Shown: positions 30,521-61,807, counted from the first letter of the stretch. The stretch is DNA of 64,000 nucleotides from Rickettsiales bacterium (GCA_013214525.1 JABSSG010000001.1:18514-82513); one strand, 5' to 3'. Notes: generated by a model not told the origin, from the letters alone. A program made the numbers and translations.

Positions 30521-32671
30521 TTAATTGTTTTGCTTAGCTAAATCTTCAACTTGCTTTTGCTCTTTATCTTTCTCATCTGTTAATTCGTCTGTTACCCAAG
30601 TTCTAGGATCATACCATTTCCTCTTTACAAGAGCCTTAGGTTTACTTGTCTTATCTATGGTAGATTTCCTACGAATAGTTGGCTTGGTTATAATTTCTTG
30701 CCTTTTTCTCAATCTCTCTCTCGGTTCATATCCTCTGATTGCAGGCTTCCTTTGCTTTTTATCTCTCAATCTATCTTTACCAAACTTCTTCTGCTTTTCT
30801 AAACCTTGTTCTTCTTTCTTTTCTTCTTTCTTTTCTTCTTTCTTTTCTTCTTCTTCTCCATCTTTGCCATCATGTTTTTTCTTTGCAGCTATCATTTCAT
30901 CTTGTAACTCTTTTAAGTTACTTTCAACATCTGTGCCTGCTAAATCTGCAATTAATTGATTAATTTGATCAATTCGACTATTATAGTTCCCTTCATCTGT
31001 ATTACCAAAAGCATCTATACTATCGTATGTTATATCTGTCTTATAATACTGCGCTAATGATTTAACTAAATCATCTTTCAATTTTGTATTATGTTTTAGC
31101 TGATTTATATATTTCTTCACATTCTTAACTTCATCAAGTCTTAAATCATAAATCATATTGAGTTCTATCATATCATAAGTACCTTTTGGATCAAAACTCA
31201 TTAACATCTGCACTTTTTGAGGAGAAGTTTCTGCAGATATATTACTTATAAATTCTCTCATTTTTTGATTTGTCTTCCTTGAATCAAGTCTATCACCTAC
31301 TTGTCGAACAAAACTAGCCGCATCAACCTTATCATTGTTATATAAATCTTCAAATACATCTAATACACTCCCTAAAGCTGCACTCTCAAATGTACTCTTC
31401 CGCTTTGGCCCTATAGCCCGCACAACTTTATCATACTCTGATATAAAATCCTCTATAGCTTTTTGTTTAGCTTCCGAAGTTAGACCTCTTGCTTCCTCTA
31501 TAGCAAGATCATTTGCCATTTCGCTACTTTTAGTAGCCAACTCTGCAGAAGTAAATAAATATGGTATCACTTCATTTAACTTACTCTTATCTTTCGCACT
31601 CTCAGACCCTTCCACTAACTTCTCTGCAATACCTTTTACTTTTGCAATATTACCATCATTACCAAATGCATCACTTCTATTGATCTCTTGAAGTTTTGTT
31701 ACTATTGAATCTGTTAATCCTAAATCCTGCAATGGATCTACTCTTTTCTTATCATGACATTTACTTGAATCTTTACAAAGAGCTCTAATATATGAAGCAT
31801 CAGGAGCTGCTTTGCCTTCTGTATTATAATGCAAATCACTATGAAATCCTCCATCTGGTGTAAAATGTAATAGATGAAGTGTAGTATCAGGCTTTTCTTC
31901 GCCATATGGCTGCGTTGCTATTAAATATGAGTCTCCTATATTAGAGCCTATCTTAAATGTCCCATACTGCTGCAACAATCCATCCACTATATCATCTTCG
32001 GTATATGGTTTAGATGTTATCCCACCAGTTATCCTGCTCTTCTTTTTTGCAATTTCTCTAACATCTTCTATTTTTAATTCAGAATTAGGAATTTCAAATT
32101 CCTTACCTTTAAGCAGCTTCCTAATTGTTTTTTTGCCACCATCTCTTTGGGGTGTTTCCATATCAATCATTTCCAATTTGCCATCCTTATTTTGCATAAT
32201 TTTTGCAATATCCGTTACTTTCCACTCTTCTTTTGGCATGGTACCCCTATTTATTTCCCTAAGATTACCAGACTCATCCATTTGATAATGAGCGTGGCTT
32301 GTACTACCATCATGATGCATTTTTACATAATTCACTACACCATCATCTGTTCCCATCACACGCATCTCTTTAATGCTAGAATCTTTATCTCTATATATTA
32401 TATCATTTGCCGTATCTAAAACTGCTTCTCTCTTGGGAGCTTCCCAATCTGTAGTCTTGCTTACATCTGGTCTCTCATCTCTAAATGAAAGCGATTCTTC
32501 TTGGTCTTCTTCTGCTTGTCTCTCTGCTTCTTCACCTTCCTCATCACCAGCATCCAAAGCACTAGAAACCTGAGTTATATTAATTAATAGTAGTAAAATC
32601 ACGAGCATTTTTAGAAAATGCTGTAAATAAGTCTTATAGCTACTCATAATTGTTTGTTGTTCATTATTCAT
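30521..32671 (-). CDS. Large acidic secreted/surface protein, candidate cargo of the adjacent TpsB-like transporter (module 1)
   Basis: 716 aa. Signal-like N-terminus ...LLLLINITQVSSA/LD, an acidic stretch, His/Gly-rich beta-like N-region, one DLGLT motif, an (EEKK)n tract and a basic C-terminus with KRKWYDPRTW. It starts 16 nt downstream of tpsB-like gene 1. Confidence 0.6.
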   Translation of the reverse strand: MNNEQQTIMSSYKTYLQHFLKMLVILLLLINITQVSSALDAGDEEGEEAERQAEEDQEESLSFRDERPDVSKTTDWEAPKREAVLDTANDIIYRDKDSSIKEMRVMGTDDGVVNYVKMHHDGSTSHAHYQMDESGNLREINRGTMPKEEWKVTDIAKIMQNKDGKLEMIDMETPQRDGGKKTIRKLLKGKEFEIPNSELKIEDVREIAKKKSRITGGITSKPYTEDDIVDGLLQQYGTFKIGSNIGDSYLIATQPYGEEKPDTTLHLLHFTPDGGFHSDLHYNTEGKAAPDASYIRALCKDSSKCHDKKRVDPLQDLGLTDSIVTKLQEINRSDAFGNDGNIAKVKGIAEKLVEGSESAKDKSKLNEVIPYLFTSAELATKSSEMANDLAIEEARGLTSEAKQKAIEDFISEYDKVVRAIGPKRKSTFESAALGSVLDVFEDLYNNDKVDAASFVRQVGDRLDSRKTNQKMREFISNISAETSPQKVQMLMSFDPKGTYDMIELNMIYDLRLDEVKNVKKYINQLKHNTKLKDDLVKSLAQYYKTDITYDSIDAFGNTDEGNYNSRIDQINQLIADLAGTDVESNLKELQDEMIAAKKKHDGKDGEEEEKKEEKKEEKKEEQGLEKQKKFGKDRLRDKKQRKPAIRGYEPRERLRKRQEIITKPTIRRKSTIDKTSKPKALVKRKWYDPRTWVTDELTDEKDKEQKQVEDLAKQNN

Positions 32672-32687: not shown

Positions 32688-34457
32688 TTACCAACTGAAC
32701 TCTTTACTAATTAGAAACCTAAAAATACTACTGTTATTATTCTTATCTCCATTTACCTTAATACTTCTAACTGTTGGAAATTCAACTGTACTCTCAGCAT
32801 AAAATCCATAAGGGAAAAACAGTCTCACACCAACACCTAATGCTGGCAATGTAGATTTATTAAAATAAATTATATCACGATGCTCTTTTCTTGCAGATGT
32901 AGTATTGTGGTTGATAAAATGTGTTATATCAAAAAAACCAAAAAATTGTCCTAAGTTAAGAAATTTTTTAATTTTTGGTTTCTCAAACTCTTTACTATAT
33001 CTAAGCTCTACCTTACCTGAAATACCTTGGTCTGCTGATACAAGCCCAGTCTTATAACCACGAGCTGTATTAGAGGTATTAATTGAATATCTATGCTCAC
33101 TAGGCAATAATTTTCCTGTATATTGATATGACGCCTTCAAGAACAATGAAAAATTGTTAGGTAAAGGCTGATCTCTATACCAATCAATTATAAAATAATT
33201 AAAACTTTTATCAAAATCTATCCTGTCTGTACTATCTTTATCATAAGAAACTCTATTTAAAGTCCAATTGAAATATGGGAAAAACCAGTTCTCAACATTT
33301 AATGGGTCTACTATCTTTATTTTACCACCCAATGACCCCATCACATAGTCATAACCCCTTGTCTTACTAGTGCCAGAATAATGCTCCGTATCACGTCTTT
33401 CTGCAGCTAATTCTAATTTTACACTACGGTTATTATTTAATACTGCGTATTGATCAAGCCTTCCTTTAACAATGTTAGTTTTATTATCCTTTGAACTCTC
33501 TGCAAGATTAGGATCATCTTTTAAATGAGAGAAAAATATACTTGCCGAAGTACCATATGTATTCAACCTCTTTAAATACCCCAACGTTATCAATTGAAAT
33601 CTACTCGGCTTATCTGAAGTACCAGCACTTACCATTACAGAATCATTTGATAGAACATTATAAAATTGTGAAAAAGCCTCAAATTGATGTTTTCCTAAAT
33701 CAGAAGTACCATGATTATTTACTGAAACACTAGCTTGACCTCTTTCTGTACTGACATGCATAAGTAAATCTGCTACTTTATTACTCTCTATTTCTCCAAG
33801 CTGTTCAATTTCATATTCTGTGTTATAACCATGTATTTTGTTTATAAGAAGCAAATATCTTTGCAAATCTTTGGTTTTTAAAGGGTTTGCCTTCTCAATT
33901 TTTTCTACCAATTTTAAGAAAAGCTTATTTTTCAATATTTTCTTATCTCTTTTGTCATCAACCAAGCCAATAACAACTGTTCTAAGTTTACCTTCAATAA
34001 TCTTCACTCTTAGCTCAGGTTCAACTACTTCAACATACGCCACCGGTAAAGCATAACCTTCCTTGTGATAGTATTTTTCAATATCCTCAACAATTTGCCT
34101 TGCTTCATTCTCACCAATCTTTTTCTTCAAATAGGGCTTGATTACAGAACGTATTTTACCAGTCTTAATTGCTTTATTGCCACTAATTATAATTTTACTT
34201 ATCTTGTTATGTTGTTGCCAAGAAACTTTTGATTCTTTTCTACTTGAATGCTCTGGCACTGGCTTTTGTTCAGATTGTTTACGCCTATGAAGTTCTGATA
34301 TAATCTGCTTATCTATAAATGTTCTTTTCTGGTTATGATGTGCGGCTACAGAATTTCTTGCATCTGCTGCATTTTCTATTGCTATAGCTGATTTAACCGT
34401 GAAAATATTTCCAAATAATACCAAAGCTATACTTAAACTTGTCAAAAACTTTTTCAT
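32688..34457 (-). CDS. ShlB/FhaC/HecB-family (TpsB-type, Omp85 superfamily) outer-membrane transporter, copy 1
   Basis: Signal peptide MKKFLTSLSIALVLFGNIFTVKSAIA. POTRA_2-like segment IIISGNKAIKTGKIRSVIKPYL...YYHKEGYALPVAYVEV...IIEGKLRTVVIG. DN-like NNHGTSDLGK segment, an L6-type ARGY motif, and a terminal ...KEFSW beta-signal. Confidence 0.75.
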   Translation of the reverse strand: MKKFLTSLSIALVLFGNIFTVKSAIAIENAADARNSVAAHHNQKRTFIDKQIISELHRRKQSEQKPVPEHSSRKESKVSWQQHNKISKIIISGNKAIKTGKIRSVIKPYLKKKIGENEARQIVEDIEKYYHKEGYALPVAYVEVVEPELRVKIIEGKLRTVVIGLVDDKRDKKILKNKLFLKLVEKIEKANPLKTKDLQRYLLLINKIHGYNTEYEIEQLGEIESNKVADLLMHVSTERGQASVSVNNHGTSDLGKHQFEAFSQFYNVLSNDSVMVSAGTSDKPSRFQLITLGYLKRLNTYGTSASIFFSHLKDDPNLAESSKDNKTNIVKGRLDQYAVLNNNRSVKLELAAERRDTEHYSGTSKTRGYDYVMGSLGGKIKIVDPLNVENWFFPYFNWTLNRVSYDKDSTDRIDFDKSFNYFIIDWYRDQPLPNNFSLFLKASYQYTGKLLPSEHRYSINTSNTARGYKTGLVSADQGISGKVELRYSKEFEKPKIKKFLNLGQFFGFFDITHFINHNTTSARKEHRDIIYFNKSTLPALGVGVRLFFPYGFYAESTVEFPTVRSIKVNGDKNNNSSIFRFLISKEFSW

Positions 34458-34609
34458 AACCGCATCTATTACTATTTTCACTTAATTATAACAGTTCTTT
34501 AACAAAATAAAAAACTTCCCCCCTCTTATGTATAAAAATAATAATTGTGTTAATAATGTTGTGACTCAAATGCCATATTTATTAACCTCAATTAGGATTA
34601 TTAATATTT

Positions 34610-44985: not shown

Positions 44986-44989
44986 ATAA

Positions 44990-45037
44990 TATACTCCTAG
45001 TACTTGAAGATCCCTGTTCTTAAGTACGATTAGTATA
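44990..45037. repeat. Family A miniature copy
   Basis: TATACTCCTAGTACTTGAAGATCCCTGTTCTTAAGTACGATTAGTATA. Confidence 0.6.
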
Positions 45038-45050
45038 AAACAAACTACTT

Positions 45051-45213: not shown

Positions 45214-45215
45214 TA

Positions 45216-48107: not shown

Positions 48108-48124
48108 TAGTTTTTATGATGAAA

Positions 48125-48290
48125 TATACCCATCGGACTTAAAAAGTCCGAGAGTTTAAGAAAGAAAATAAAGTCAATATCAAAATGAAAATTCAAGAAT
48201 ATTAGCTATATTCAAGACATTTTCATGCGAAAATAGTGGCTTTATTTTCAGACTTAAAAACCGGAATCTTCAAGTCTGATGGGCATTATA
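48125..48290. repeat. Family A element (full copy, same subfamily as 23181..23366 but without the nested hairpin)
   Basis: TATACCCATCGGACTTAAAAAGTCCGAGAGTTTAAG ... CTTAAAAACCGGAATCTTCAAGTCTGATGGGCAT. Confidence 0.8.
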
Positions 48291-48381: not shown

Positions 48382-48777
48382 ATGCATATAGATAAAGAAA
48401 AACGCATTTGGTTTTCTAAAGAAGAAATGAAGGTAATCACTGCAGTCTTACATGTATTATCTTATGAAATGTGGAAGTTCGAAAAATCAAAAGAATTCAG
48501 AAGCATTAAGATCAAATTTTCATGTTCTCTTGAAGATCTTAAATATGTTAAAGATTGGTTTGCCAGTCTTTACAGTGAATGTAAAGACAATACTTATATA
48601 TTTCTTTTCGAGAGTGCTTCCAAAAGACTTGAAGTTATACATATTGCTTTAGAAAAATGTTTTAAAAACTTCAAAGAATATGAGGTATCAGATTTAGGAC
48701 ATATAACTAAAAAAGAACTTAACAATGTTTTAAAAAGCTTCAAAAAACTTTCTTTGGAGCTAGAAAAAGTTGAATAA
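48382..48777 (+). CDS. Hypothetical protein (orphan, bracketed by repeats)
   Basis: 131-aa ORF with no family recognised. The GGAG 5 nt upstream of its ATG lies in the family C arm. Confidence 0.4.
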   Translation: MHIDKEKRIWFSKEEMKVITAVLHVLSYEMWKFEKSKEFRSIKIKFSCSLEDLKYVKDWFASLYSECKDNTYIFLFESASKRLEVIHIALEKCFKNFKEYEVSDLGHITKKELNNVLKSFKKLSLELEKVE

Positions 48778-48937
48778 TCCCAGTTATGGCTTAGAAAGAT
48801 TTTAGAGTTTTAGGATATTTTTGAGCTACAATTAACAATTTTTATTGATGAGAATAGCGAGGCTATTTCAAAAAAAATTGCTGATTTGTAGCAAAAATAG
48901 ACAAGAATATAATATCTTTTAATCCATAGTTGGGTTT
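48777..48937. repeat. Family C element (full copy)
   Basis: Termini AATCCCAGTTATGGCTTAGAAAG / TTTAATCCATAGTTGGGTTT. Confidence 0.8.
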
Positions 48938-49835: not shown

Positions 49836-50900
49836 TTATTTTAACTCTGCTTTCTTTTGCTGCTTATCTGCAGTGACCTTATCATCAGATATAGTTTCAG
49901 CTTTTTTCTTATTAGAGATCAACTTCTTATCTTCTGCTGCTTTAACTTCTTCCGTTACTTTCTTAGCACTCTCTTCCTTGTCAACTACATCTTTTTTAGC
50001 ATCTTTTGCTTTCTCCAGTTTCTGTGATGTTTTAACCTCTCCAACAGAATTAGAGCTTTTTGACTTAGCTTTTGTCCCTTTTTCTTTGCTTGTATCCTTT
50101 GTTTTATCCTTTGCAGGAGTAGATTTATTCAAAGCATGTTGTACAACTTCCTCTTCTTTTATCTTCTCTAAAGAAATACCAGAACTTTCTAGATACTTAC
50201 CCAAAGCATATAAAACAACATCAGAAAATAAATTACAATAAAATTTAATTGCTTTTCTAGAATCATCATTGCCTGGAATCATATAATCAATGCCATCTGG
50301 ATCTGAGTTAGTATCAACAATAGCAATTATTGGAATACCAAGTTTTTGAGCTTCTTTAATAGCAATATGTTCCTTATTGGTATCAATTACAAAAAGCAAA
50401 TCTGGTTTGCCTCTCATCTTTCTAATTCCACCTAATACTTTTTCTAATTTATCTCTTTTACGAGTGAAATCTAAAATTTCTTTTTTACTATATCTAACAT
50501 CATCTGTATCTTCTGTAGATTTAATTTTCTTTTCAAGATCCTCAAGAGTAGTAATTGACTTAGATATAGTAGACCAATTAGTTAACATTCCTCCAAGCCA
50601 TCTATGATTTACATAAAATTGCCCACATCTTGTCGCAAATTCTTTTATATACTCAGATGCTTGCCTTTTGGTTCCTACAAACAATATTTGTGCATTCTGC
50701 TTATTTTGAATTAAAGAATCTATAATTTTTAATGATTTAAATAAAGGTGGAACTGTCTTTTGTAAGTTTATAACGTGAAGACCATTTCTAGAGTCATAAA
50801 TAAATGGAGCCATTTTAGGATTCCACATTTTAGTTTTATGACCAAAATGTACACCACTCTCCAGCATTTCTTCCATTGTGAATTTAGGAAAATCAACCAT
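49836..50900 (-). CDS. rpsB: 30S ribosomal protein S2 with Lys-rich C-terminal extension of about 100 aa
   Basis: Conserved S2 core ([21 protein letters not shown]...A..EA.KLGIP), then a low-complexity K/E/A/S tail. Confidence 0.95.
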
Positions 50901-51072
50901 ATATTATTACCTATTTTAGTTAAACCTCCACAAGCTTAACTCTATTTTAAGAGCACCAAAACAAACGCTTGTGTGTGAAATACGAACCTTTAAAAGTAAA
51001 TACTTTTTCTAAGTAATCGATTCATTACAACATAACTTATACAAAAACTTATAAATATGCAAGCACGATTCG

Positions 51073-51167
51073 TATATACGAATCATACTTGAAGAATCCT
51101 AGTTTTAAAGAAAGAAAGTTTTATTTTCAAACTTAAAAACCGGAGGCTTCAGGCATGATTGTATATA
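51073..51167. repeat. Family A shortened copy (arms without core), ending on the base before the stop of the DUF1013 gene
   Basis: TATATACGAATCATACTTGAAGAATCCTAGTTTTAAAG ... CTTAAAAACCGGAGGCTTCAGGCATGATTGTATATA. Confidence 0.75.
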
Positions 51168-51719: not shown

Positions 51720-51788
51720 TGCTATAAATAATTCATTGGATCTTAAAATATATTATATTCCCAAAATTATTCAATAATTTTATATATA

Positions 51789-51833
51789 TATACTACTCAT
51801 ACCTGAAGAATCCTAGTTTTAAAGACAGAAAAT
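51789..51833. repeat. Family A left arm only
   Basis: TATACTACTCATACCTGAAGAATCCTAGTTTTAAAGACAGAAAAT. Confidence 0.65.
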
Positions 51834-51923
51834 ATAGAATTTAGAAATATCTAAAATAAATAAGCGCATTAATCATTTGTTTATCTTTTTATAGCAAAAT
51901 ATTATATGTAATCAAAGAGAACT

Positions 51924-53711
51924 ATGCATAATAATTATATCACAAGAAAGCTTTCAGTTAACCTGACCTTAAGCTTTCTATTACTCAGCAATATTTTCTT
52001 TACTAAAATAACTATAGCGGTAGAAAATGCAAATGACGTTCAAAATGCTACTGCAGCACATCACAGCCAGAGAAAAACATTTATTGATAAACAAATAACC
52101 TCTGAATTTCACCGTTATAAACAAGCCAAGAAAAAAGCTACAACAAAATATTTAAAGAAGAAAATGTCTGACACTTCCTGGCAACAACATAAAAAAATTA
52201 TGAAAATTTTTGTTACAGGAAATAAAAACATAAAAACAGCTAATATCAAAGCTATTATAAAACCTTATCTACGCAAAGGAGTAACTGAAAAGGAAACAAA
52301 ACTTATTTCAGATGATATTGAAAATTATTATCGCAAACAAGGATATTTCCTACCAGTTGCACATGTTGAAATCATTGACTCAACTCTTAAAATAACAATC
52401 ATAGAAGGTAAGATAAACACCGTTGTAATTGGTTTTGCTGACCCTAAAAGAGATAAAAAAGTTTTAAAAAATAAACGATTTTTAGATTTAATACAAAAAA
52501 TTGAAATAGCATCCCCACTTAAAACAAAATACTTAGAAAAAAACTTATTATTAATAAACAAAATTCATGGCTACACTGTTAATTATGAATTAAGACCAGT
52601 AGAACAACTAGAAGGTAATAATGTTGCAGACCTAATTATAGAAATCTCAACTAAAAAAGGGACGGCTAGCATTTCAGCAAATAACCATGGCACTTCCGAC
52701 TTAGGAAAACATCAACTCACTGTTTCTGCACAAGCATTTAATGTCACCTCTAATGATTCCTTACTCCTCACAGCTGGAACTTCAGATAAACCAAAAAAAT
52801 TTCAACTAATAACAGGAGGGTATCTAAAACGACTAAATTCTTACGGCACTTCAGCAAGTATATTTCTTTCACATTTGAAAGATGATCCTCAAACTACTTC
52901 TGACTCAAAAGATAACATAAGCAATATTATAAAAGGTCGTTTAGATCAATATGTAGTTTTAAATAATGCCCATCAACTTAAATTAGAGCTAAGTGCTGAA
53001 CAACGTGATGTAGAACATTACTCTGGTAGCGTTAAAACCAGTGAATATAAATATGCAATGGGATCATTTGGTGGAAAAATTAAATTAACTGATCCGCTAG
53101 AAGTAGAAAACTGGTTTTTCCCATATTTTCACCAAGTTTTAAATAAAGTCTCCTATGAAAAAGATAGTACAGAAAAAAGAAACTTCGATAGAGATTTTAA
53201 TTATTTTACTATTGACTATAACAGAACTCAACCTCTACCAAAAGACTTTGCTTTATTCGTACAAGCCTCATATCAATATACAAATAAATTACTTCCTAGC
53301 GAACATCGCTATTCAATCAATTCATCTAATACTGCAAGAGGATATATAGCTGGGCTTGTATCAGCAGACCAAGGAATCTCAGGAAAACTAGAGTTAAGAT
53401 ATACTAGAAAGATTAGCAAAAATAAAATCAAAAAATTCCTTGAAGATGCACAAATCTTCGCTTTCTATGATGTCACCCATTTTATTAAGCACAACAAAAC
53501 AATAGATAGAAAAGAACATCAAGATGCAATGTATTTCAATAAATCCACTCTTTCAGGTGTTGGTGTAGGTTTTCGATTATTTTTTCAAAATGAATTTTTT
53601 GCCGAAGGAACTGCAGAATTTCCAACTGTTAAAAATATTATGATAAATGGATCAAAAGAAAAGAATAATCCTCTCTATAGATTCTCAATAACTAAGGAAT
53701 TTAATTGGTAA
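51924..53711 (+). CDS. ShlB/FhaC/HecB-family (TpsB-type, Omp85 superfamily) outer-membrane transporter, copy 2
   Basis: 595 aa, collinear with the 597-aa copy; well over half of residues identical by eye. POTRA_2-like IFVTGNKNIKTANIKAIIKPYL...YYRKQGYFLPVAHVEI...IIEGKINTVVIG, an ARGY L6-type motif, and a terminal ...KEFNW. Confidence 0.75.
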   Translation: MHNNYITRKLSVNLTLSFLLLSNIFFTKITIAVENANDVQNATAAHHSQRKTFIDKQITSEFHRYKQAKKKATTKYLKKKMSDTSWQQHKKIMKIFVTGNKNIKTANIKAIIKPYLRKGVTEKETKLISDDIENYYRKQGYFLPVAHVEIIDSTLKITIIEGKINTVVIGFADPKRDKKVLKNKRFLDLIQKIEIASPLKTKYLEKNLLLINKIHGYTVNYELRPVEQLEGNNVADLIIEISTKKGTASISANNHGTSDLGKHQLTVSAQAFNVTSNDSLLLTAGTSDKPKKFQLITGGYLKRLNSYGTSASIFLSHLKDDPQTTSDSKDNISNIIKGRLDQYVVLNNAHQLKLELSAEQRDVEHYSGSVKTSEYKYAMGSFGGKIKLTDPLEVENWFFPYFHQVLNKVSYEKDSTEKRNFDRDFNYFTIDYNRTQPLPKDFALFVQASYQYTNKLLPSEHRYSINSSNTARGYIAGLVSADQGISGKLELRYTRKISKNKIKKFLEDAQIFAFYDVTHFIKHNKTIDRKEHQDAMYFNKSTLSGVGVGFRLFFQNEFFAEGTAEFPTVKNIMINGSKEKNNPLYRFSITKEFNW

Positions 53712-53717
53712 ATTTTT

Positions 53718-56700
53718 ATGTATCAATTTTTAAAAAATAAACATCCTAAAACTACCTCACGACATATTCTGCATATTCTTTTAATGTTAATTTTAGTAGC
53801 TTTACTAACTATATATAATACATCTTATACTGAAACCTCAGACGATAGTGAAACCGAAGCAGAAGAGATAGAAACCGAAGAAGCTACTGATAATATAGAG
53901 GAAAACATCAATGGTACTATAGAAGCTGCAAAAGAACACTTCTTAGACCCAAATGCCAAAGTTAAAGTAGACCTAACAAAGCACGAAATTAAACTTTATA
54001 CCTCACATGACAAAAATACAAATACATATTATACCTATGCAACAGTAGTAGATGAAAATGGCAATGTTATGGACCACATAAATTTCACACAAAATAAGAA
54101 AGGAGATGTAACTAAATCTTCTGTTGGAGTAAAACCAAAAAATAGTTGGTGGAAAAACCATATATCTATAACGAAGTCCAGCCCTATTGCAGATGCCAAA
54201 ACAACCTATATCACAGGAGTGCTACCACGAGATAATCCCAACGCACGTTTTATAATGCATAGCTCTGAAGAAAAACATATAGATGCTGTAAAAAAGAATA
54301 AATCTGAAAACCTACTTAAAAATATACTTGCTAAAGATGTAAACTCTGTGAAAGCTATCGTTACAACCAACTTAAACGAAGATGAAGATAAAATTGATGT
54401 GCATTACATCCATAATCAAAAAGATGGATCACAACATAGCACACATTCATCCCAATCTGGAGAAGCAATTTCTAAACCAAGTTATTTCGATGAGTTATTT
54501 GAAAATTATGCTAAAGGAAAAACAGCTACTGTATCAAAGCTAGTAACATCTGAGAATGAGATCTGGAATACATATTTAGATTTAGAAAATACTAGTGCTT
54601 CTGATACCACACATGTAAAAAAATTATACATAAAGGCAGGAGGAACAGAAACAGACCTAACCCAAAAAGCTCTTAAAGAATTCAAGAAAACTTCAAGTAA
54701 AATCGATGCAAATCAAGCAGCAACATTAGGACTAACTGCAACTAACATTATTAATGATACAAATTTTGATCAAACCAAAGTACAAAATTTATACAATGCT
54801 CAACCTAAACCAAAAACTGGTACTAAACCTTCTTTTGATGAATTTCTAATCTCTTCATATAAAGATAATACAATCACTACCCCTGCAAGAGCAGTTGCTC
54901 TAGGACTAACTGCAACTAACATTGTTAATGATGCAAATTTTAATCAAACCAAAGTAAACGATCTATATGATGCCGAAACTTATACAGGATCTGGTAAAAA
55001 ACCAACTTTTAACAAATTTGTAGCTAGTAAATATAAAGATTACACAGTTAATGCTACAAGAGCAGTTGCTCTAGGATTAACTGCAATTAACATTGTTAAT
55101 GATGCAAATTTTAATCAAATTAAAGTACAAAATTTATATAATGCTCAACCTAAACCAAAAACTGGTATTAAACCTTCTTTTGATGAATTTCTAATCTCTT
55201 CATATAAAGATGATAAAATCACTACTGCCGCAAGAGCTACTGATCTAGGATTAACTGTGGATGACACCCTCAACTCAACTCTTAGCAAAGGTAAAGTAGA
55301 AGATTTATATATAAGTGAACAAAAATTTACATTTCTCAAAAGTGAGGAAACTACACAAACATTTGAAGCTTTTGTAACTGACTCTTTTGAAAATAACAAT
55401 ATCAAAACCACAGAAAGGGCTGCTGATCTAGGACTAACTTCAGCTAACACTGTCGGGACAACTCTTACTAAAGACAAAGTAAAGGATCTACATACTTTTG
55501 AACAAAAAGGTAAAAAAACTAAACAAACTTTCAATGCATTTCTAATCTCTTCATATAAAGATAATACAATCACTACCCCTGCAAGAGCAGTTGCTCTAGG
55601 ACTAACTGCAACTAACATTATTAATGATGCAAATTTTGATCAAACCAAAGTACAAAATTTATATAATGCTCAACCTAAACCAAAAAATGGTACTAAACCT
55701 TCTTTTGATGAATTTCTAATCTCTTCATACAAAGATGATAAAATCACTACTGCCACAAGAGCTGCTGATCTAGGATTAACTGCAGCTAACATTGTTAATG
55801 ATGCAAATTTTGATCAAGCTAAAGTACAAGGTTTATACAACGCTGAAATTGGACCTAAACTACCATTTATTCAGTTTGTAATTAACGCTTATGAAGGTGG
55901 CGAAATTACAAATGCTGCAAGAGCTACTGATCTAGGACTAACCGCAGAAAAGTCTCTTGTTGCATTCAGAGAAGATAACCTTAGTGCTACTAAAGCAAAA
56001 CAATTAGTTACTACTGATAAAATAATAACTGCTTTTCAAGATGGTAACCTTAATAAAGATAAGGCTGGAGAGCTACTTACAATTGAAGAGGTATTTAACG
56101 CATTCCTAGCAAAACAACTCAATGCACTACAAACTAAATATTTACACCTAGCAACCGGCGGTTCTCTATCCCAATTAACTCAAGAAGCACTGATCCAGTT
56201 TGCTGGCAACCGTATCACTCCAAAACAGGCTAAAAATTTAGGCGTTAACGAAGACCTAGCTATTGACCAATTCAAAGCTGGGAAACTTAATAAAGACAAA
56301 ACTAAATTATTAGTAACTCCTCAACAAGCATTTAAGGCATTTGAAAGTAACACAATAGATTCAAATCAAGCTCAAGCATTAGGCGTCACTTCTCAACAAG
56401 CTCTTGAGTCATATAACCAACTTGGAGGAATTAATCTAGCTCAAGCTAAAGCTTTAGGAGTGCAGAATAAAGATGTAATTGAATATTATAAAAATAAACT
56501 TACTAGCACAATAATAAAGGATTTCAATATAACAAACCAAGAATTACTTACTGCTGTTGGCAAAGAGATTATTGACACAGCTCAAGCTGTAAAACTAGGA
56601 ATAACATCACAACAGGCATTTAAGGCATTTGAAAGTAACACAATAGATTCAAATCAAGCTAAAGCTTTAGGAGTGCAGAATAAAGATGTAATTGAATATT

Positions 56701-57947
56701 ATAAAAATAAACTTACTAGCACAATAATAAAGGATTTCAATATAACAAACCTAGAATTACTTACTGCTGTTGGTAAAGATATTATTGATGCAGCTCAAGC
56801 TGTAAAACTAGGAGTAAAACCGCAACAAGCCCTCGAGGCATTTAAAAATAACACCATAGATTCAAATCAAGCTCAAGCATTAGGTGTCACTCCCCAAGAA
56901 GCCCTCAATTCATTCCTAAAAAATTCAGGTGGCATTACTGCAACAGCAGCAAAAACATTGGGAGTAAATCAACCAATGATCGATTCCCAAGTAAATACTT
57001 GGCTAAGTAACCCATCTTCTGCTAAATCAGAAGATATAAATAAGTGGGCAAAATTACAAACAGCTGTTAATGATAAGATAAATCTAAAAACCACTCTCCA
57101 ACAAAAAGCATTGGGCAAATTAGACTCAACTACTGACATCCCTTCAGCAAAAACAATAAAGGATGCAAAAGCTTTATATCAAGCTGCAGGTGGAACAGAA
57201 TCTGATCCAACTTACAAAAGAAAAATGAGATTAATACAAAGAGAAATACTAAAAGACTTAGGAAATTCTAACAATGCTAATGATTTCAATGAATTAAAGG
57301 AGATATATCAAGCAGCCAATGGTTCTCTTACTCAAAGTCGTTTTAAAAATGCACAAGATAAAATTCAAGAAAATATAAAAAACGATATAAATAATATGTT
57401 AAAGGAAAAAGATATTAACATTAAAAATGCTCGTGAAACAATAAATAGGCTTGCTGCATTATCTGATGCTGCTGGCGGAAATAACACGGCTGAATTTAAA
57501 ACAAAACTACGTAAGCAAATCACAACTAGAATTAATACTAACCCAGAAAACAAAATAGATTTACTAACTCTATATGAAGCAGCTGGTGGAAAGAAAGCAG
57601 ACTTTCAACCAAAATCAAGAGCTAAAAAATCAAAGGCTGGAGAAACTGCTATAATTATACAGAAAAAATTGACCCCAAGCATTCAATCAAGAAAGAAACA
57701 AGAAATACGAGGAACATCAACAACAACTGGTGTACCTACTAAATTAAAAAAATCTTCTAAAACTACACCTAAGAAGTGGTATGATCTGACGAGATGGTTT
57801 ACAAAAGATTCTACAGTAAAACAAGCACCAGATACTAAAGATCAACCTTCTATAAAATCAGAAAGAACTTCTAAAAAAGATAAGCAAAAATCTAAAATTA
57901 AGGATGATTACAAAAAACTAGAAGAGGAAGACGTAGAGGTAGAGTAA
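53718..57947 (+). CDS. Giant repeat-rich secreted/surface protein, candidate cargo of the adjacent TpsB-like transporter (module 2)
   Basis: 1409 aa, starting 6 nt after tpsB-like gene 2. N-terminal hydrophobic anchor/signal, an acidic stretch, a His-rich N-domain related to the 716-aa protein, seven units of about 58 aa, an array of about 30-aa units, and a basic C-terminus with KKWYDLTRW. Confidence 0.65.
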   Translation: MYQFLKNKHPKTTSRHILHILLMLILVALLTIYNTSYTETSDDSETEAEEIETEEATDNIEENINGTIEAAKEHFLDPNAKVKVDLTKHEIKLYTSHDKNTNTYYTYATVVDENGNVMDHINFTQNKKGDVTKSSVGVKPKNSWWKNHISITKSSPIADAKTTYITGVLPRDNPNARFIMHSSEEKHIDAVKKNKSENLLKNILAKDVNSVKAIVTTNLNEDEDKIDVHYIHNQKDGSQHSTHSSQSGEAISKPSYFDELFENYAKGKTATVSKLVTSENEIWNTYLDLENTSASDTTHVKKLYIKAGGTETDLTQKALKEFKKTSSKIDANQAATLGLTATNIINDTNFDQTKVQNLYNAQPKPKTGTKPSFDEFLISSYKDNTITTPARAVALGLTATNIVNDANFNQTKVNDLYDAETYTGSGKKPTFNKFVASKYKDYTVNATRAVALGLTAINIVNDANFNQIKVQNLYNAQPKPKTGIKPSFDEFLISSYKDDKITTAARATDLGLTVDDTLNSTLSKGKVEDLYISEQKFTFLKSEETTQTFEAFVTDSFENNNIKTTERAADLGLTSANTVGTTLTKDKVKDLHTFEQKGKKTKQTFNAFLISSYKDNTITTPARAVALGLTATNIINDANFDQTKVQNLYNAQPKPKNGTKPSFDEFLISSYKDDKITTATRAADLGLTAANIVNDANFDQAKVQGLYNAEIGPKLPFIQFVINAYEGGEITNAARATDLGLTAEKSLVAFREDNLSATKAKQLVTTDKIITAFQDGNLNKDKAGELLTIEEVFNAFLAKQLNALQTKYLHLATGGSLSQLTQEALIQFAGNRITPKQAKNLGVNEDLAIDQFKAGKLNKDKTKLLVTPQQAFKAFESNTIDSNQAQALGVTSQQALESYNQLGGINLAQAKALGVQNKDVIEYYKNKLTSTIIKDFNITNQELLTAVGKEIIDTAQAVKLGITSQQAFKAFESNTIDSNQAKALGVQNKDVIEYYKNKLTSTIIKDFNITNLELLTAVGKDIIDAAQAVKLGVKPQQALEAFKNNTIDSNQAQALGVTPQEALNSFLKNSGGITATAAKTLGVNQPMIDSQVNTWLSNPSSAKSEDINKWAKLQTAVNDKINLKTTLQQKALGKLDSTTDIPSAKTIKDAKALYQAAGGTESDPTYKRKMRLIQREILKDLGNSNNANDFNELKEIYQAANGSLTQSRFKNAQDKIQENIKNDINNMLKEKDINIKNARETINRLAALSDAAGGNNTAEFKTKLRKQITTRINTNPENKIDLLTLYEAAGGKKADFQPKSRAKKSKAGETAIIIQKKLTPSIQSRKKQEIRGTSTTTGVPTKLKKSSKTTPKKWYDLTRWFTKDSTVKQAPDTKDQPSIKSERTSKKDKQKSKIKDDYKKLEEEDVEVE

Positions 57948-57994: not shown

Positions 57995-59992
57995 CTAAAT
58001 ATTAAAATATTTTTTCTTAGATGGTGTTTGTTCTTCCCCACCACTTTTATCTGTATTATCTCTAAATCCTTGTTTTCTTTGCCTATAAGGTCTTGATTTT
58101 CTTGCGTCTCCAGATTTATCTCCACCACGATGCCAAGAACCTTGTGTATTGTCTCTATTATTATTTCTACTTTTCCCTCTAGGTTTTTTCTTAAATCTAG
58201 GCGGCTTAGGACTTCTACTTTCGTATGAAGTACCTTCTCTATTGTAATTAATCTCATCCTCTTCTTCAAAATCAGCTACTTCTTCATTTGAGGAAATATC
58301 TTTTTTACTTTCAAGATCGTCTTTATCATTCTTTTCAGAAGATTCTTCCATGCTCTTTATGCTAAGCCTATATTTCCCTTTATATTGATCCATTTCAACC
58401 AGCTTAACTTGAATTTTTTCATCTACCTTCAATACATCATGGATATTTTTTATCCTCTTATGCGAAATTTCACTTATATGAAGCAATCCTTCCCTATTAA
58501 GAAATCTGACTACAGCACCAAAATCTAAAATCTCTTTTATCACTCCTTCATATATATTACCTAACTCTGGATCTGTTGTAATATCTATAATCATTTTTGT
58601 TGCTGCATCTCCAGATTCTTTATCTGTAGCAGTAATTGAAACTATTCCTTCATCAGTAATATCTATTTTAGCTCCTGTTTTAGCACAAATTTCTTTGATC
58701 ATTTTACCACCAGGACCTACCACACTGCCTATCTTCTCTTTATTTATTGGCATCTTGACAATAGAAGGAGCAAACTTACTTACTTCTTCTCTAGGGTTAG
58801 CAAGTGCTTTTGAAATATCTTTTAAAATAGAAAGCCTACCTTTCTGAGCCTGTTTTAAAGCTACATCCATAATTTCTTTGGTAATACCAGGAATTTTTAT
58901 ATCCATCTGTAATGCAGTAATACCTTCTGCTGTTCCAGCAACTTTAAAGTCCATATCACCTAAACTATCTTCATCTCCTAATATATCAGATAAAACTTTA
59001 AATTTACTTCCTTCCTTAACAAGCCCCATTGCAATACCAGCAACTGGTCTTTTTAGAGGAACTCCTGCGTCCATAAGAGCTAAAGTAGTTCCACAAACTG
59101 TAGCCATTGAAGATGACCCGTTTGATTCGGTAATTTCAGATACAACTCTTATTGTATAAGGAAAATCTTCTTTTGAAGGTAACATAGGATAAATAGCTTT
59201 CCATGCTAATTTTCCATGACCAATTTCTCTTCTACCAGGAGGTCTCATAAAACCTGTCTCACCTACTGAATAAGGTGGAAAATTATAATGTAGTAAGAAA
59301 TGTTCCTTAGTGTCTTGATCCATTGAATCAATAATCTGTTCATCTTGTGGGCCACCTAGTGTTGTTACAACCAAAGCTTGAGTTTCCCCACGAGTAAATA
59401 ATGCAGAACCATGCGTTCTAGGTAAGATTGATGCTTCAGAACTGATTGGTCTAATTTTTGTCATATTACGACCATCAATACGTGACCCTTTTAAAATATT
59501 CTTTCTAACAATTTTTTCTTTAAGAGACTTAAATATAGAAGAAACAGTTTGTTTTAATTCAGGTTCTGGATCAATCTGATCAAAAACTTTTGACCTTAAC
59601 AATTTCACTTTTTCTTCTCTTTCTTTCTTATCTGCTATTTTAAGTAATTTTGTAAGCTCTTTATCTGCAATAGTTTTAATTTTCTTTTCTAATGCATTAT
59701 CAAATGCATCAAGTTTAGCTTCCAAAGTAGGTTTACCAGCAGCTTTCTTGAAAGACTCTATTAACTTAATAACTGGTTGAAAACTTTTATGAGCAAAATC
59801 TATTGCTTTAATCATCTGATCTTCAGGAACTTCGTTTGCTACTGCTTCCACCATTAAAATAGAATCTTTAGTACCAGCTACAACTAAATCCAAGTCTAAA
59901 ACTTCTTTTTCTTCTCCTAAAACCGGATTTAAAATAAGCTTACCATTATTCTGACTCACTCTAACAGCACCAATCGTGTTTGTAACTGGCAC
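57995..59992 (-). CDS. pnp: Polyribonucleotide nucleotidyltransferase (PNPase), major part downstream of an in-frame TGA; carries a basic low-complexity tail of about 115 aa
   Basis: Second RNase PH domain, KH (GPGGKMIKEI) and S1 (GVIKEILDFGAVVRF) domains. The reading frame is continuous with 60074..60421 except for one TGA. Confidence 0.9.
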   Translation of the reverse strand: MPVTNTIGAVRVSQNNGKLILNPVLGEEKEVLDLDLVVAGTKDSILMVEAVANEVPEDQMIKAIDFAHKSFQPVIKLIESFKKAAGKPTLEAKLDAFDNALEKKIKTIADKELTKLLKIADKKEREEKVKLLRSKVFDQIDPEPELKQTVSSIFKSLKEKIVRKNILKGSRIDGRNMTKIRPISSEASILPRTHGSALFTRGETQALVVTTLGGPQDEQIIDSMDQDTKEHFLLHYNFPPYSVGETGFMRPPGRREIGHGKLAWKAIYPMLPSKEDFPYTIRVVSEITESNGSSSMATVCGTTLALMDAGVPLKRPVAGIAMGLVKEGSKFKVLSDILGDEDSLGDMDFKVAGTAEGITALQMDIKIPGITKEIMDVALKQAQKGRLSILKDISKALANPREEVSKFAPSIVKMPINKEKIGSVVGPGGKMIKEICAKTGAKIDITDEGIVSITATDKESGDAATKMIIDITTDPELGNIYEGVIKEILDFGAVVRFLNREGLLHISEISHKRIKNIHDVLKVDEKIQVKLVEMDQYKGKYRLSIKSMEESSEKNDKDDLESKKDISSNEEVADFEEEDEINYNREGTSYESRSPKPPRFKKKPRGKSRNNNRDNTQGSWHRGGDKSGDARKSRPYRQRKQGFRDNTDKSGGEEQTPSKKKYFNI

Positions 59993-60073: not shown

Positions 60074-60421
60074 TCAAATAATTTGTACGTCATGATGAAA
60101 ACCCTTAGGAAATAAAGGCCTGATAGGACGATCAATCAACCTAGAAGTTACTGTTTCTCGGTCAGATGATTTTCCTTCTCTTTTAAGAAAGCCCCCAGGG
60201 ATCTTACCAGTGGCAAAAAACATTTCCTTGTAATGCACATTTAAAGGAAAAAAATCTGCTCCTTCTACTACATCTCTACACATTACTACTGTGCAAAGCA
60301 ATTTTGTTTCACCATACGAAACTAATACTGCCCCATCTGCTTGTTTTGCTATCCTACCTGTTTCTAAAGTTAGTACTTGATCGCACCATTTTAGTTCTTT
60401 TTTTATTACTTTATTCGCCAT
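60074..60421 (-). CDS. pnp: PNPase N-terminal fragment (first 115 codons), ended by an in-frame TGA at 60074..60076
   Basis: [26 protein letters not shown] and [13 protein letters not shown] are typical of the PNPase N-terminal RNase PH domain. Confidence 0.9.
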
Positions 60422-61630: not shown

Positions 61631-61807
61631 ACACATACTCATCTTCCTGGAAACCACGGTTTTTAAATCCCAGTTATGGACTAGAAAAACTTTAGAATGT
61701 TTTTAAGCAAAAATTAGTATTTATTTTGAAGGAATAGCAGAGCTATTTCAAGAAAAAAGTACTAATTTACAACAAAAATATAATATTTTTTTAATCCATA
61801 ACTGGGG
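61631..61807. repeat. Family A left-arm fragment (61631..61666) fused to a full family C element (61665..61807)
   Basis: ACACATACTCATCTTCCTGGAAACCACGGTTTTTAA, then AAATCCCAGTTATGGACTAGAAAA ... TTAATCCATAACTGGGGG. Confidence 0.75.

What the first reader, a model, noticed from the sequence alone, without database searches (positions are those of the whole stretch)
51924..57947. Module 2: TpsB-like transporter plus 1409-aa repeat-rich cargo; with module 1, a candidate undescribed type Vb-like secretion family
The 595-aa protein is a clear paralogue of the 597-aa TpsB-like protein, with the same architecture from the AAHH(S/N)Q..TFIDKQI N-terminal helix to the ARGY motif and terminal F-x-W. Six nt downstream starts a 1409-aa ORF. 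Its ends resemble the module 1 partner: an N-terminal hydrophobic segment, an acidic run (TSDDSETEAEEIETEEATD versus AGDEEGEEAERQAEEDQEE), a His-rich beta-like region (IDVHYIHNQKDGSQHSTHSSQSGEA), DLGLT motifs and a basic tail with the KKWYD motif. The middle has expanded into repeat arrays. Only a lone DNPNA resembles the TPS-domain NPNL/NPNGI signature. The two modules lie about 17 kb apart on opposite strands, and repeat elements lie near both. Two diverged copies that keep gene order and tight spacing are the strongest evidence in this window for a dedicated transporter-cargo system not described for this group, as far as I know.
Basis: partly seen in the sequence, partly recalled or inferred. 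Interest (0 to 1): 0.85.

Follow-up and report, generated by a model that had tools for sequence, protein, structure and literature searches.

The report
Divergent two-partner secretion pair, non-TPS cargo
A marine Rickettsiales-like bacterium carries an outer-membrane export channel of the known FhaC/CdiB type. The giant repeat protein encoded right after it lacks the usual "TPS" secretion domain, so this is probably a new variant of a known secretion system, though export has not been shown.

Summary
tpsB2 (51924-53711, 595 aa) is a real TpsB. It scores above the Pfam cut-offs for ShlB and POTRA_2. Its AlphaFold model (two POTRA domains plus a 16-strand barrel) matches CdiB and FhaC best, and it has the L6 ARGY motif. 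It is 62% identical to the module-1 transporter.

Six nucleotides downstream starts an intact 1409-aa ORF. It has an export segment, an acidic linker, a ~200-aa N-domain, 16 "I-x4-A-x2-L-G-[LV]" helical-looking repeats, AAGG repeats and a basic tail containing KKWYDLTRWF.

No TPS domain was detectable in this cargo or in 18 other partner proteins from 12 related loci. This held for Pfam, a profile search against PDB sequences, and a profile-profile comparison with real TPS domains (probability 0.07%). Canonical TpsA controls scored E about 1e-36 to 1e-40.

The N-domain is a small clade-specific family that includes both window cargos. The transporters form a separate clade at most 23% identical to canonical TpsBs, and a partner gene is always adjacent.

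Caveats: the structure model of the N-domain failed (pLDDT 37), export is untested, and FhaBC homologues have already been reported in some Rickettsiales.

Verdict: new variant of type Vb secretion; interest about 0.6.

The parts
51764..51859 (+). Partial copy of a dispersed intergenic repeat (family A), 65 nt upstream of the tpsB2 start codon
   Evidence: the repeat finder families D4/D5. Other copies lie at 8867-9036, 12159-12328, 12890-13059, 20352-20478, 23176-23345, 48100-48286 and 51050-51160.
51924..53711 (+). tpsB2: 595-aa TpsB-type (ShlB/FhaC/CdiB) outer-membrane transporter
   Evidence: Pfam ShlB E=1e-10 and POTRA_2 E=8.6e-8, both above the curated cut-offs. AlphaFold pLDDT 76.5. Foldseek best hits are CdiB 6wim (E=7.6e-26, TM 0.71) and FhaC. 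62% identical to tpsB1.
51924..52031 (+). Probable Sec signal peptide of TpsB2 (about aa 1-32/36). The conserved AAHHSQRKTFIDKQI segment that follows may be the H1 helix.
   Evidence: Read directly from the sequence: a basic n-region and then the hydrophobic stretch LTLSFLLLSNIFF. The model shows a helix at aa 37-75, but pLDDT is below 50 there.
52197..52652 (+). Two POTRA domains (aa 92-162 and 163-243)
   Evidence: Pfam POTRA_2 covers aa 92-162. The model shows two beta-alpha-alpha-beta-beta units with pLDDT 81-92.
52653..53708 (+). 16-stranded beta-barrel (aa 244-595) ending in F-N-W
   Evidence: Pfam ShlB covers aa 244-551. I counted 16 long strands in the DSSP output of the model.
53334..53345 (+). 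ARGY: the loop-6 (V)RG(Y/F) motif of Omp85/TpsB proteins
   Evidence: Translation. It aligns with SVRGF of E. coli CdiB in the profile alignment. R472, G473 and Y474 are invariant or nearly invariant among 13 clade members.
53712..53717 (+). 6-nt intergenic spacer (AATTTT) between the tpsB2 stop and the cargo2 ATG. No obvious Shine-Dalgarno sequence.
   Evidence: Sequence read.
53718..57947 (+). cargo2: 1409-aa repeat-rich putative exoprotein (1465 aa in the other assembly)
   Evidence: ORF. No homologue other than itself among 5.8 billion proteins. The ENA assembly version has one extra repeat.
53718..53906 (+). N-terminal export segment (aa 1-38: basic n-region plus ILHILLMLILVALLTI) and acidic linker (aa 39-63)
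   Evidence: Read from the sequence. The same layout is seen in partner proteins of all related loci.
53907..54503 (+). Clade-specific N-domain (aa 64-262), occupying the place of a TPS domain
   Evidence: BLAST to the L001 cargo fragment E=1e-15. A local iterative HMM links it to L001_c, L001_frag, L010_c2 and cargo1. No TPS hit with Pfam, PDB sequences or hhalign (probability 0.07%).
54705..55952 (+). Eight (nine in the other assembly) repeats of about 57 aa, each starting with the motif x-A-R-A-x-x-LGLT
   Evidence: Tandem Repeats Finder period 171/174, coordinates 54727-55844. The repeat finder D1/D3. Unit list.
55953..57017 (+). Eight further units of 24 or 47 aa with the core I-D-x-x-Q-A-x-x-L-G-V-T-x-Q-Q-A-x-x-A-F. 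These include a 213-nt unit present twice at 91-92% identity (56441-56866).
   Evidence: TRF period 213. The repeat finder D8/D9. Unit list. Weak Pfam HTH_ParB hit at aa 931-986, E=4.8e-5. No PDB sequence relative.
57135..57602 (+). C-terminal region with four (L/I)Y-x-AAGG-type repeats (aa 1153, 1196, 1248, 1285). A fifth copy lies at aa 303.
   Evidence: Motif positions. Similar AAGG...FK.K motifs appear in L001_c and L010_c2 by reading their sequences.
57603..57944 (+). Basic tail (30 K/R in the last 110 aa) ending in an acidic tip
   Evidence: Charge count.
57771..57800 (+). KKWYDLTRWF tail motif, shared with cargo1 (RKWYDPRTWV). It resembles PKK(S)(W/F)xD...F motifs in partner proteins of other loci.
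   Evidence: Translation. BLAST tail hit E=0.002. Tails listed. Only weak statistical support beyond the cargo1/cargo2 pair.
32688..34481 (-). tpsB1: 597-aa paralogous transporter (module 1)
   Evidence: Pfam ShlB E=2.1e-8 and POTRA_2 E=1.4e-7. 62% identity to tpsB2.
30521..32671 (-). cargo1: 716-aa partner of module 1, with the same end architecture and a divergent middle
   Evidence: ORF. N-domain HMM E=1.3e-5. BLAST to L001_frag E=9e-7. No TPS hit.

Best explanation
Module 2 is a two-partner (type Vb) secretion pair of a divergent, Rickettsiales-associated clade.

Proposed mechanism:
1. TpsB2 is made with a signal peptide and inserted in the outer membrane as a 16-strand barrel with two periplasmic POTRA domains. 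This architecture is shown.
2. The downstream 1409-aa protein is probably co-transcribed and is sent to the periplasm by its N-terminal hydrophobic segment. This is inferred.
3. Its conserved ~200-aa N-domain sits exactly where the TPS domain sits in FhaB or CdiA but is unrelated to it in sequence. It is proposed to be the element that the POTRA domains recognise to start translocation through the barrel. This is inferred.
4. The passenger is not a Gly/Asn/Val-rich beta-helix. It is built from 16 helical-looking LG[LV] repeats plus AAGG repeats.
5. The strongly basic tail with the conserved KKWYD..W motif probably stays with, or anchors the protein to, the bacterial surface, or acts as a second recognition element. 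This is speculative.

If the bacterium lives inside a host cell, crossing the outer membrane would put the protein on the bacterial surface or into the host compartment. The repeats, which evolve fast and vary in copy number, would then meet host molecules.

The modules have duplicated within the genome: two intact copies in the window and a third, broken copy on another scaffold. The cargos diverge far faster than the transporters.
For: Transporter identity:
- Pfam ShlB and POTRA_2 above the cut-offs for both paralogues.
- AlphaFold model with confident POTRA domains and barrel.
- Foldseek top hits are CdiB and FhaC, ahead of BamA and TamA.
- The clade profile aligns to CdiB, including the L6 RGY/RGF motif.

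Pairing:
- The gaps are 6 nt and 16 nt in the window.
- Every relative with enough flanking sequence has a same-strand partner with an export segment and an acidic run next to tpsB: L001, L002, L004, L008, L009, L010, L011, L019, L021. In L005 and L018 the partner lies upstream, and L011 has one on each side.
- These transporters are only 26-62% identical to one another. The closest annotated TpsBs (Azospirillum, Thalassospira, Caballeronia) use the same tpsB-then-tpsA order with 16-225 nt gaps.

Non-TPS cargo:
- No Pfam TPS hit at E<=1 in 19 partner proteins, whereas canonical partners score 1e-36 to 1e-40.
- The N-domain profile finds no solved TPS domain.
- hhalign against a TPS profile gives probability 0.07%.
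- Reciprocal HMM searches do not cross-hit.
- Composition differs: K 10-14% and H 3-7% in the N-domains, against K 1.5-7% and H about 1% in TPS domains.

N-domain as a real family.

Separate clade: at most 23% identity to canonical TpsBs, on a long branch. Only 14 relatives were found among 5.8 billion proteins.
Against: - No experiment or expression data. Export by TpsB2 rests on adjacency and analogy.
- The N-domain structure prediction failed (pLDDT 36.7 with a 2-sequence alignment), so a beta-helix diverged beyond recognition is not excluded.
- Several relatives have a coiled-coil partner without the N-domain directly after tpsB (L008, L009, L010), so the N-domain cannot be a universal recognition signal.
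- An eyeballed beta-unit shared by all partners failed a leave-one-out HMM test.
- One relative contig (L008) also encodes a classical Fil_haemagg_2 protein about 10 kb upstream. Canonical cargos may therefore coexist, and the rest of this MAG could not be searched for them.
- Copies decay: the third tpsB in this MAG and a tandem module in L001 are broken.
Confidence: 0.55

Rival explanations
1. This is an ordinary two-partner system. The N-domain is a canonical TPS beta-helix that has diverged beyond sequence recognition in a fast-evolving, AT-rich endosymbiont genome.
For: The position (directly after the signal peptide), the size (about 200-260 aa) and the predicted beta-rich character of the region (low-confidence DSSP) fit a secretion domain. 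The transporter is a normal TpsB. Cargos in this clade evolve very fast: cargo1 and cargo2 are barely alignable while their transporters are 62% identical.
Against: Pfam TPS, a profile search against PDB sequences, hhalign against real TPS domains and reciprocal HMMs all gave nothing. The NPNL/NPNGI motifs are absent, and the single DNPNA is not conserved in homologues. The composition is Lys/His/Asp-rich rather than Gly/Ala/Val/Asn-rich. The HMM core is about 180 positions, with signs of an internal duplication into two short beta units (L010_c2 hits the same HMM region twice).
Confidence: 0.2
2. The downstream protein is not the substrate of TpsB2. It could be a co-regulated envelope or surface protein exported by another route, or a periplasmic or accessory factor, while the transporter serves another substrate encoded elsewhere, for example a classical FhaB-like protein.
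For: A Fil_haemagg_2 protein lies on the same contig as one clade member but is not adjacent to it (L008). The basic C-terminal tails recall C-terminal signals of other secretion systems (my own knowledge, not tested). Partner types vary between loci: coiled-coil proteins, N-domain proteins and small secreted proteins.
Against: An adjacent partner with an export segment is found next to tpsB in every locus that has flanking sequence, even though the transporters are only 26-62% identical to one another. This is the arrangement of known TPS operons. An N-terminal Sec-type segment argues against one-step systems that take cytoplasmic substrates. Transporter and partner duplicated together within this genome.
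Confidence: 0.15
3. The module is a decaying remnant. The cargo ORF is a rapidly drifting, functionless repeat array kept open by chance or by assembly artefacts.
For: A third copy in the same MAG and a tandem copy in L001 are broken. The repeat number differs between two assemblies of the same sample. No homologue of the full-length cargo exists in the databases.
Against: A 1409-codon ORF free of stops in 31% G+C DNA is not compatible with drift. The N-domain and tail motif are conserved across genomes. Both transporters are full length with all conserved motifs.
Confidence: 0.05

Closest known systems
FhaC/FhaB of Bordetella and CdiB/CdiA of E. coli and Acinetobacter (classical two-partner, type Vb secretion)
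   Same: The transporter has a signal peptide, two POTRA domains, a 16-strand barrel and the L6 RG(Y/F) motif. CdiB (6wim) and FhaC (4ql0, 4qky) are the best structural matches. The gene order is tpsB then cargo with a tiny gap. The cargo is large, repeat-rich and has an N-terminal export segment.
   Different: The cargo has no TPS domain (PF05860), no NPNL/NPNGI motifs and no Fil_haemagg repeats. The passenger looks helical rather than beta-helical. Transporter identity to canonical TpsBs is only 18-23%. No toxin/immunity module is present.
FhaBC homologues reported in Rickettsiales (basal families, Deianiraeaceae, Gamibacteraceae; PMC10847448)
   Same: The same order of bacteria and the same transporter superfamily. 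They have been proposed to act in host attachment or toxicity.
   Different: Those were scored as homologues of FhaB plus FhaC, that is, with a haemagglutinin-type cargo. Here the cargo has no detectable FhaB similarity. I could not check whether this clade was counted in that survey.
HMW1B/HMW1 of Haemophilus influenzae (TPS subtype with an atypical TPS domain)
   Same: A precedent for TPS systems whose secretion domain departs from the FHA-type motif set (my own knowledge).
   Different: HMW1-PP is still a beta-helix. It should be among the solved chains searched, and the N-domain profile matched no solved chain at E<=10.
Tandem-repeat effectors of Anaplasmataceae (e.g. Ehrlichia TRPs)
   Same: Fast-evolving proteins with variable tandem repeats in obligate intracellular Rickettsiales (my own knowledge). 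This is a conceptual analogue for a host-facing repeat protein.
   Different: They are exported by type I secretion, have no adjacent Omp85-type transporter and show no sequence similarity here. This is an analogy only and was not tested.

Membership tests
TpsB transporters (ShlB/FhaC/CdiB branch of Omp85) | ShlB-type barrel domain detected above the curated threshold | tested here: met
   PF03865 E=1e-10 (42 bits, cut-off 22.7) for TpsB2 and E=2.1e-8 for TpsB1.
TpsB transporters (ShlB/FhaC/CdiB branch of Omp85) | Two periplasmic POTRA domains N-terminal to the barrel | tested here: met
   PF08479 POTRA_2 E=8.6e-8, above the cut-off. The model shows two beta-alpha-alpha-beta-beta units at aa 94-161 and 163-243 with pLDDT above 80.
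TpsB transporters (ShlB/FhaC/CdiB branch of Omp85) | 16-strand barrel whose closest structural relatives are solved TpsBs | tested here: met
   Foldseek hits: 6wim CdiB E=7.6e-26 (TM 0.71), 4ql0 and 4qky FhaC, 6wil CdiB, all ahead of BamA and TamA. I counted 16 long strands in the model.
TpsB transporters (ShlB/FhaC/CdiB branch of Omp85) | Conserved loop-6 (V)RG(Y/F) tetrad | tested here: met
   ARGY at aa 471-474 aligns with SVRGF of CdiB and is conserved in the clade.
TpsB transporters (ShlB/FhaC/CdiB branch of Omp85) | N-terminal H1 plug helix and linker | tested here: inconclusive
   A helix is predicted at aa 37-75 and the segment AAHH.Q..TFIDKQI is conserved, but pLDDT is below 50 over aa 1-88.
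TpsB transporters (ShlB/FhaC/CdiB branch of Omp85) | Translocates a partner protein across the outer membrane | not testable with these tools
   Needs a secretion assay.
TpsA exoproteins (two-partner cargo) | N-proximal TPS secretion domain (PF05860; NPNL/NPNGI motifs; beta-helix) | tested here: not met
   No Pfam hit at E<=1 for cargo2, cargo1 or 17 other partner proteins. Positive controls scored 1e-36 to 1e-40. Profile search against PDB sequences found nothing. hhalign probability 0.07%. HMMs do not cross-hit. The fold itself is undetermined.
TpsA exoproteins (two-partner cargo) | N-terminal Sec export signal | tested here: met
   A basic n-region followed by a 16-residue hydrophobic stretch (aa 16-31), read from the sequence. 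The same layout is seen in all partners. Cleavage was not predicted because no signal-peptide tool was available.
TpsA exoproteins (two-partner cargo) | Encoded next to its tpsB on the same strand | tested here: met
   The gap is 6 nt. Partner adjacency recurs in 12 related loci.
TpsA exoproteins (two-partner cargo) | Beta-helical passenger built of haemagglutinin-type repeats | tested here: not met
   No Fil_haemagg or Fil_haemagg_2 hit. The repeats are LG[LV]-type units of 24-58 aa with only a weak HTH_ParB resemblance. This is tested at sequence level only; no structure model of the passenger was made.
TALE-like or other known helical repeat families (considered for the 24-aa repeats) | Sequence similarity to a solved repeat protein | tested here: not met
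   phmmer of both repeat regions against all PDB sequences gave nothing better than E=0.0046 (a phage capsid protein) and no repeat protein.

The most novel reading that the evidence does not exclude
This clade would be a distinct subclass of type V secretion. In it, a TpsB-type channel recognises a non-beta-helical N-domain, and perhaps also the conserved basic PKK(W/F)xD tail motif. It would export alpha-helical, helix-turn-helix-like tandem-repeat proteins. That would challenge the view that beta-helix folding at the surface drives two-partner secretion. In an intracellular bacterium these cargos, with their nuclear-localisation-like basic tails, could act as host-directed effectors delivered without a type IV system.
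Probability: 0.2. Interest if true: 0.8.

Novelty: new variant of a known kind. Interest (0 to 1): 0.6.

Why it matters
Two-partner secretion is defined by the match between a TpsB channel and the TPS beta-helix domain of its cargo. Folding of the beta-helix outside the cell is thought to power export.

A coherent clade of TpsB channels whose adjacent partners lack that domain, and look helical, would show one of two things. Either the channel can be retargeted to a different recognition domain and a different passenger type, or TPS domains can diverge far beyond what current profiles detect. Either result is useful for annotating secretomes of uncultured endosymbionts.

It would also add a secretion route and a set of fast-evolving, repeat-variable surface or host-facing proteins to Rickettsiales-like bacteria. 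Type IV secretion and autotransporters dominate current thinking for that group, and published surveys disagree on whether TpsB genes occur there at all.

Tried and rejected
1. Full-length cargo2 against 5.8 billion proteins returned only itself.
2. A 7-sequence profile of the N-domain in the same database returned nothing, not even its members, so that search was wasted.
3. An exhaustive HMMER search with the cargo2+cargo1 N-terminal alignment against 1.84 billion representatives returned only cargo2 itself plus three unrelated repeat proteins whose scores were inflated by 6-15 summed stretches. I rejected those three as spurious.
4. AlphaFold of cargo2 aa 36-300 with a 2-sequence alignment gave pLDDT 36.7 and is uninterpretable.
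5. I thought I saw a short beta-hairpin unit (V-x-V ... Y-x-V ... DG ...) shared by all partner proteins, including the small secreted ones in L001 and L005. A leave-one-out HMM test failed: the left-out partners scored E of 3.9 or worse or were not detected. I dropped the idea.
6. I considered that the 24-aa repeats might be TALE-like or related to another solved repeat family. There was no significant PDB sequence match. Only a borderline Pfam HTH_ParB hit remains.
7. The lone DNPNA as a relic of NPNL/NPNGI: it is not conserved in homologues, so it is chance.
8. NCBIfam gave no named family for any of the four proteins.
9. The promoter and terminator scans found fewer sites than shuffled controls and were not informative.
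10. An in-frame TGA in pnp raised the question of an alternative genetic code. I rejected this because TGA ends 7 of 43 ORFs and genes are otherwise intact under table 11.

Full report
**What is there.**
The two ORFs exist exactly as described: 51924-53711 (+, 595 aa) and 53718-57947 (+, 1409 aa), separated by six nucleotides. Module 1 is 32688-34481 (-, 597 aa) followed by 30521-32671 (-, 716 aa) after 16 nt. The modules point away from each other, with 17.4 kb between their start codons. The surrounding genes are housekeeping: trcR, rpsB and tsf upstream of module 2; pnp and truB downstream; yidC and lptCAB around module 1; also clpB, thrS and a P-type ATPase. The window is 31% G+C. An exact-sequence look-up places it on scaffold_6 of a marine metagenome bin (ERZ23489196 / SRR7648327), which NCBI names 'Rickettsiales bacterium'.

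**The transporter.**
- Both paralogues score above the Pfam curated cut-offs for the ShlB barrel and the ShlB-type POTRA domain. They are 62% identical without gaps.
- An AlphaFold model built on 13 clade members has mean pLDDT 76.5. It shows two confident POTRA domains and, by my count of the DSSP strands, a 16-strand barrel. Only residues 1-88 are unreliable.
- Foldseek ranks E. coli CdiB first (E=7.6e-26, TM 0.71), then FhaC and Acinetobacter CdiB, ahead of BamA and TamA.
- A clade profile aligns with CdiB from the N-terminal helix region through loop 6. There ARGY (aa 471-474) matches SVRGF.

Membership in the TpsB family is therefore secure. The H1 plug helix is the only feature left open.

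**The clade.**
- Only 14 relatives were found among 5.8 billion proteins. Scans of species-representative genomes and JGI metagenomes added a handful more.
- In a neighbour-joining tree these proteins form a long-branch clade. Identity to the closest annotated TpsBs (Azospirillum, Thalassospira, Caballeronia) is only 18-23%.
- TpsB1 and TpsB2 group together with one metagenomic protein (P0002), which is the closer relative of TpsB1. The duplication therefore predates that split.
- A third paralogue lies on scaffold_2 of the same bin. It is split into a 467-aa ORF and a 53-aa ORF.

**The partner genes.**
Wherever flanking DNA is available, a same-strand gene encoding a protein with an N-terminal hydrophobic segment followed by an acidic run sits next to tpsB.
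- Downstream: L001, L002, L004, L008, L009, L010, L011, L019, L021.
- Upstream: L005 and L018. L011 has one on each side.

- In L009 and L010 a coiled-coil, Ala/Lys/Glu-rich protein comes first and a large N-domain protein second. L001 keeps an 87-aa remnant of the first type. L008 has only the first type.
- A subclade (L004, L011, L019, L021) sits in a conserved uvrC-pgsA-murA context, which argues for vertical inheritance.

**Anatomy of cargo2**.

| Residues | Feature |
|---|---|
| 1-38 | Export segment |
| 39-63 | Acidic linker |
| 64-262 | N-domain |
| ~330-745 | Eight ~57-aa units, each beginning x-A-R-A-x-x-LGLT |
| ~746-1100 | Eight further 24- or 47-aa units with the core I-D-x-x-Q-A-x-x-L-G-V-T-x-Q-Q-A-x-x-A-F |
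| 303 and 1153-1289 | Five (L/I)Y-x-AAGG motifs |
| 1296-1409 | Basic tail (30 K/R in the last 110 residues), containing KKWYDLTRWF (aa 1352-1361) |

- The repeats are visible at DNA level with periods of 171/174 and 213 nt, the latter at 91-92% identity.
- The other assembly of the same sample has one extra 56-aa LGLT unit after residue 589 and is otherwise identical. The copy number is therefore either variable in the population or collapsed in one assembly.
- The only Pfam hit is a borderline HTH_ParB match inside the 24-aa repeats.
- Neither repeat region has a significant relative among PDB sequences.

**Is the N-terminus a TPS domain?** At sequence and profile level, no.
- Pfam PF05860 gives no hit at E<=1 for cargo2, cargo1 or 17 other partner proteins.
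- The TpsA proteins next to the closest annotated TpsBs score 1e-36 to 1e-40 in the same test.
- A 7-sequence profile of the N-domain finds no solved chain at E<=10. That library should contain the solved TPS domains I know of.
- Profile-profile comparison with an alignment of real TPS domains gives probability 0.07%.
- Reciprocal local HMM searches do not cross-hit.
- The composition is Lys/His/Asp-rich rather than Gly/Ala/Val-rich.
- The single DNPNA is not conserved in homologues.

The structural test failed. With only two admissible sequences the AlphaFold model had pLDDT 36.7, so an unrecognisably diverged beta-helix cannot be excluded.

**Is the N-domain real?** Yes, as a small family.
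- Cargo2 matches a cargo fragment in L001 at E=1e-15 over 257 colinear residues. Cargo1 matches the same fragment at E=9e-7.
- An iterative local HMM joins cargo2, two L001 proteins and L010_c2.
- With filters off, that HMM picks cargo1, which was not used to build it, as the only other significant ORF among 1471 (E=1.3e-5).
- L010_c2 hits the same HMM region twice, which hints at two similar beta-rich halves.
- The tail motif (KKWYDLTRWF and RKWYDPRTWV) resembles PKK(S)(W/F)xD...F motifs near the C-termini of partners in L001, L008, L009 and L011. That wider resemblance rests on reading only.

**Interpretation.**
The best-supported reading (about 0.55) is a two-partner secretion pair of a divergent clade, in which a lineage-specific N-domain replaces the TPS domain and the passenger is a helical-looking repeat array.
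- Shown: the transporter family and fold, the adjacency and its conservation, the absence of a detectable TPS domain, the reality of the N-domain family, and the repeat anatomy.
- Inferred: Sec export of the cargo, recognition by the POTRA domains, passage through the barrel, and a surface or host-facing role.

Rivals:
- A canonical TPS domain diverged beyond detection (0.2).
- A partner that is not the substrate (0.15). One reason is that a classical Fil_haemagg_2 protein lies on the same contig as one clade member. Another is that coiled-coil partners lack the N-domain.
- A decaying remnant (0.05).

**Comparison with what is known.**
Two-partner systems are textbook. FhaBC homologues have already been listed for basal Rickettsiales, Deianiraeaceae, Gamibacteraceae and a few crown members (PMC10847448). 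Another survey states that Rickettsiales genomes lack CdiB genes (PMC11077975). The claim that such a system is undescribed for the group is therefore overstated. I found no report of TpsB partners lacking a TPS domain in full-text searches, although those searches cover open-access papers only. I rate this a new variant of a known kind.

**Dead ends.**
These were the wasted profile search, spurious repeat hits in the exhaustive search, a rejected 'universal beta-unit', the rejected TALE-like idea, no NCBIfam names and uninformative promoter scans.

Noticed in passing
window 8867-9036, 12159-12328, 12890-13059, 20352-20478, 23176-23345, 48100-48286, 51050-51160, 51764-51859; inverted partial copy at 17824-17866: A dispersed intergenic repeat family of about 165-200 nt (61-93% identity between copies), reminiscent of the palindromic or MITE-like elements of Rickettsia. 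One partial copy lies 65 nt upstream of tpsB2.
   Followed up: partly
window 34600-34940, 44875-45216, 48760-48822, 61695-61778; inverted copies at 2581-2716: A second dispersed repeat family. The copies at 34767-34936 and 45048-45216 are 95-97% identical. One copy lies directly upstream of tpsB1.
   Followed up: no
window 60074-60076 (- strand): An in-frame TGA splits pnp into a 115-aa ORF and a 665-aa ORF in the same frame (...DVQII*SVLSYDG...). The other assembly calls an intact 808-aa PNPase. TGA is a normal stop in 7 of 43 ORFs, so this is a point error or a real nonsense mutation, not an alternative genetic code.
   Followed up: partly
window about 55484 (after cargo2 aa 589); locus L012 7795-12192: The ENA assembly of the same sample has a 1465-aa cargo2 with one extra 56-aa LGLT repeat. 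This is either repeat copy-number heterogeneity or an assembly collapse.
   Followed up: yes
L002 10001-12857 (scaffold_2 of the same metagenome bin): A third tpsB-partner module in the same genome. The tpsB is split into a 467-aa ORF and a 53-aa C-terminal ORF. The partner (more than 371 aa, running off the contig end) has a Pro/Thr-rich repeat region.
   Followed up: partly
L001 6439-9749 and 16273-18906: In a related 340-kb contig, a broken tpsB plus cargo fragments lie in tandem upstream of the intact module. Four small genes (169-260 aa), each with an N-terminal hydrophobic segment, follow it. This suggests local expansion and decay of secreted-protein genes.
   Followed up: partly
L008 1-204: A classical 2174-aa Fil_haemagg_2 protein ends about 9.8 kb upstream of a clade TpsB on the same JGI contig. 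At least one relative therefore also encodes a haemagglutinin-type protein.
   Followed up: no
window 49836-50900 (-) and 57995-59992 (-): Ribosomal protein S2 and PNPase both carry long Lys-rich or basic C-terminal extensions of about 100 aa that are absent from typical homologues.
   Followed up: no
window 19038-19337 and 20592-20891: A 300-nt direct repeat at 87% identity lies at the 3' ends of two adjacent genes of 412 and 413 aa on the minus strand (19039-20277 and 20593-21834). This looks like a tandem gene duplication.
   Followed up: no
L015 401-4389 and L016 509-4392: Among canonical plasmid-borne TpsBs, one is preceded by a CHAT-domain protein. Another is preceded by an adenylate/guanylate cyclase and has no adjacent TpsA.
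   Followed up: no
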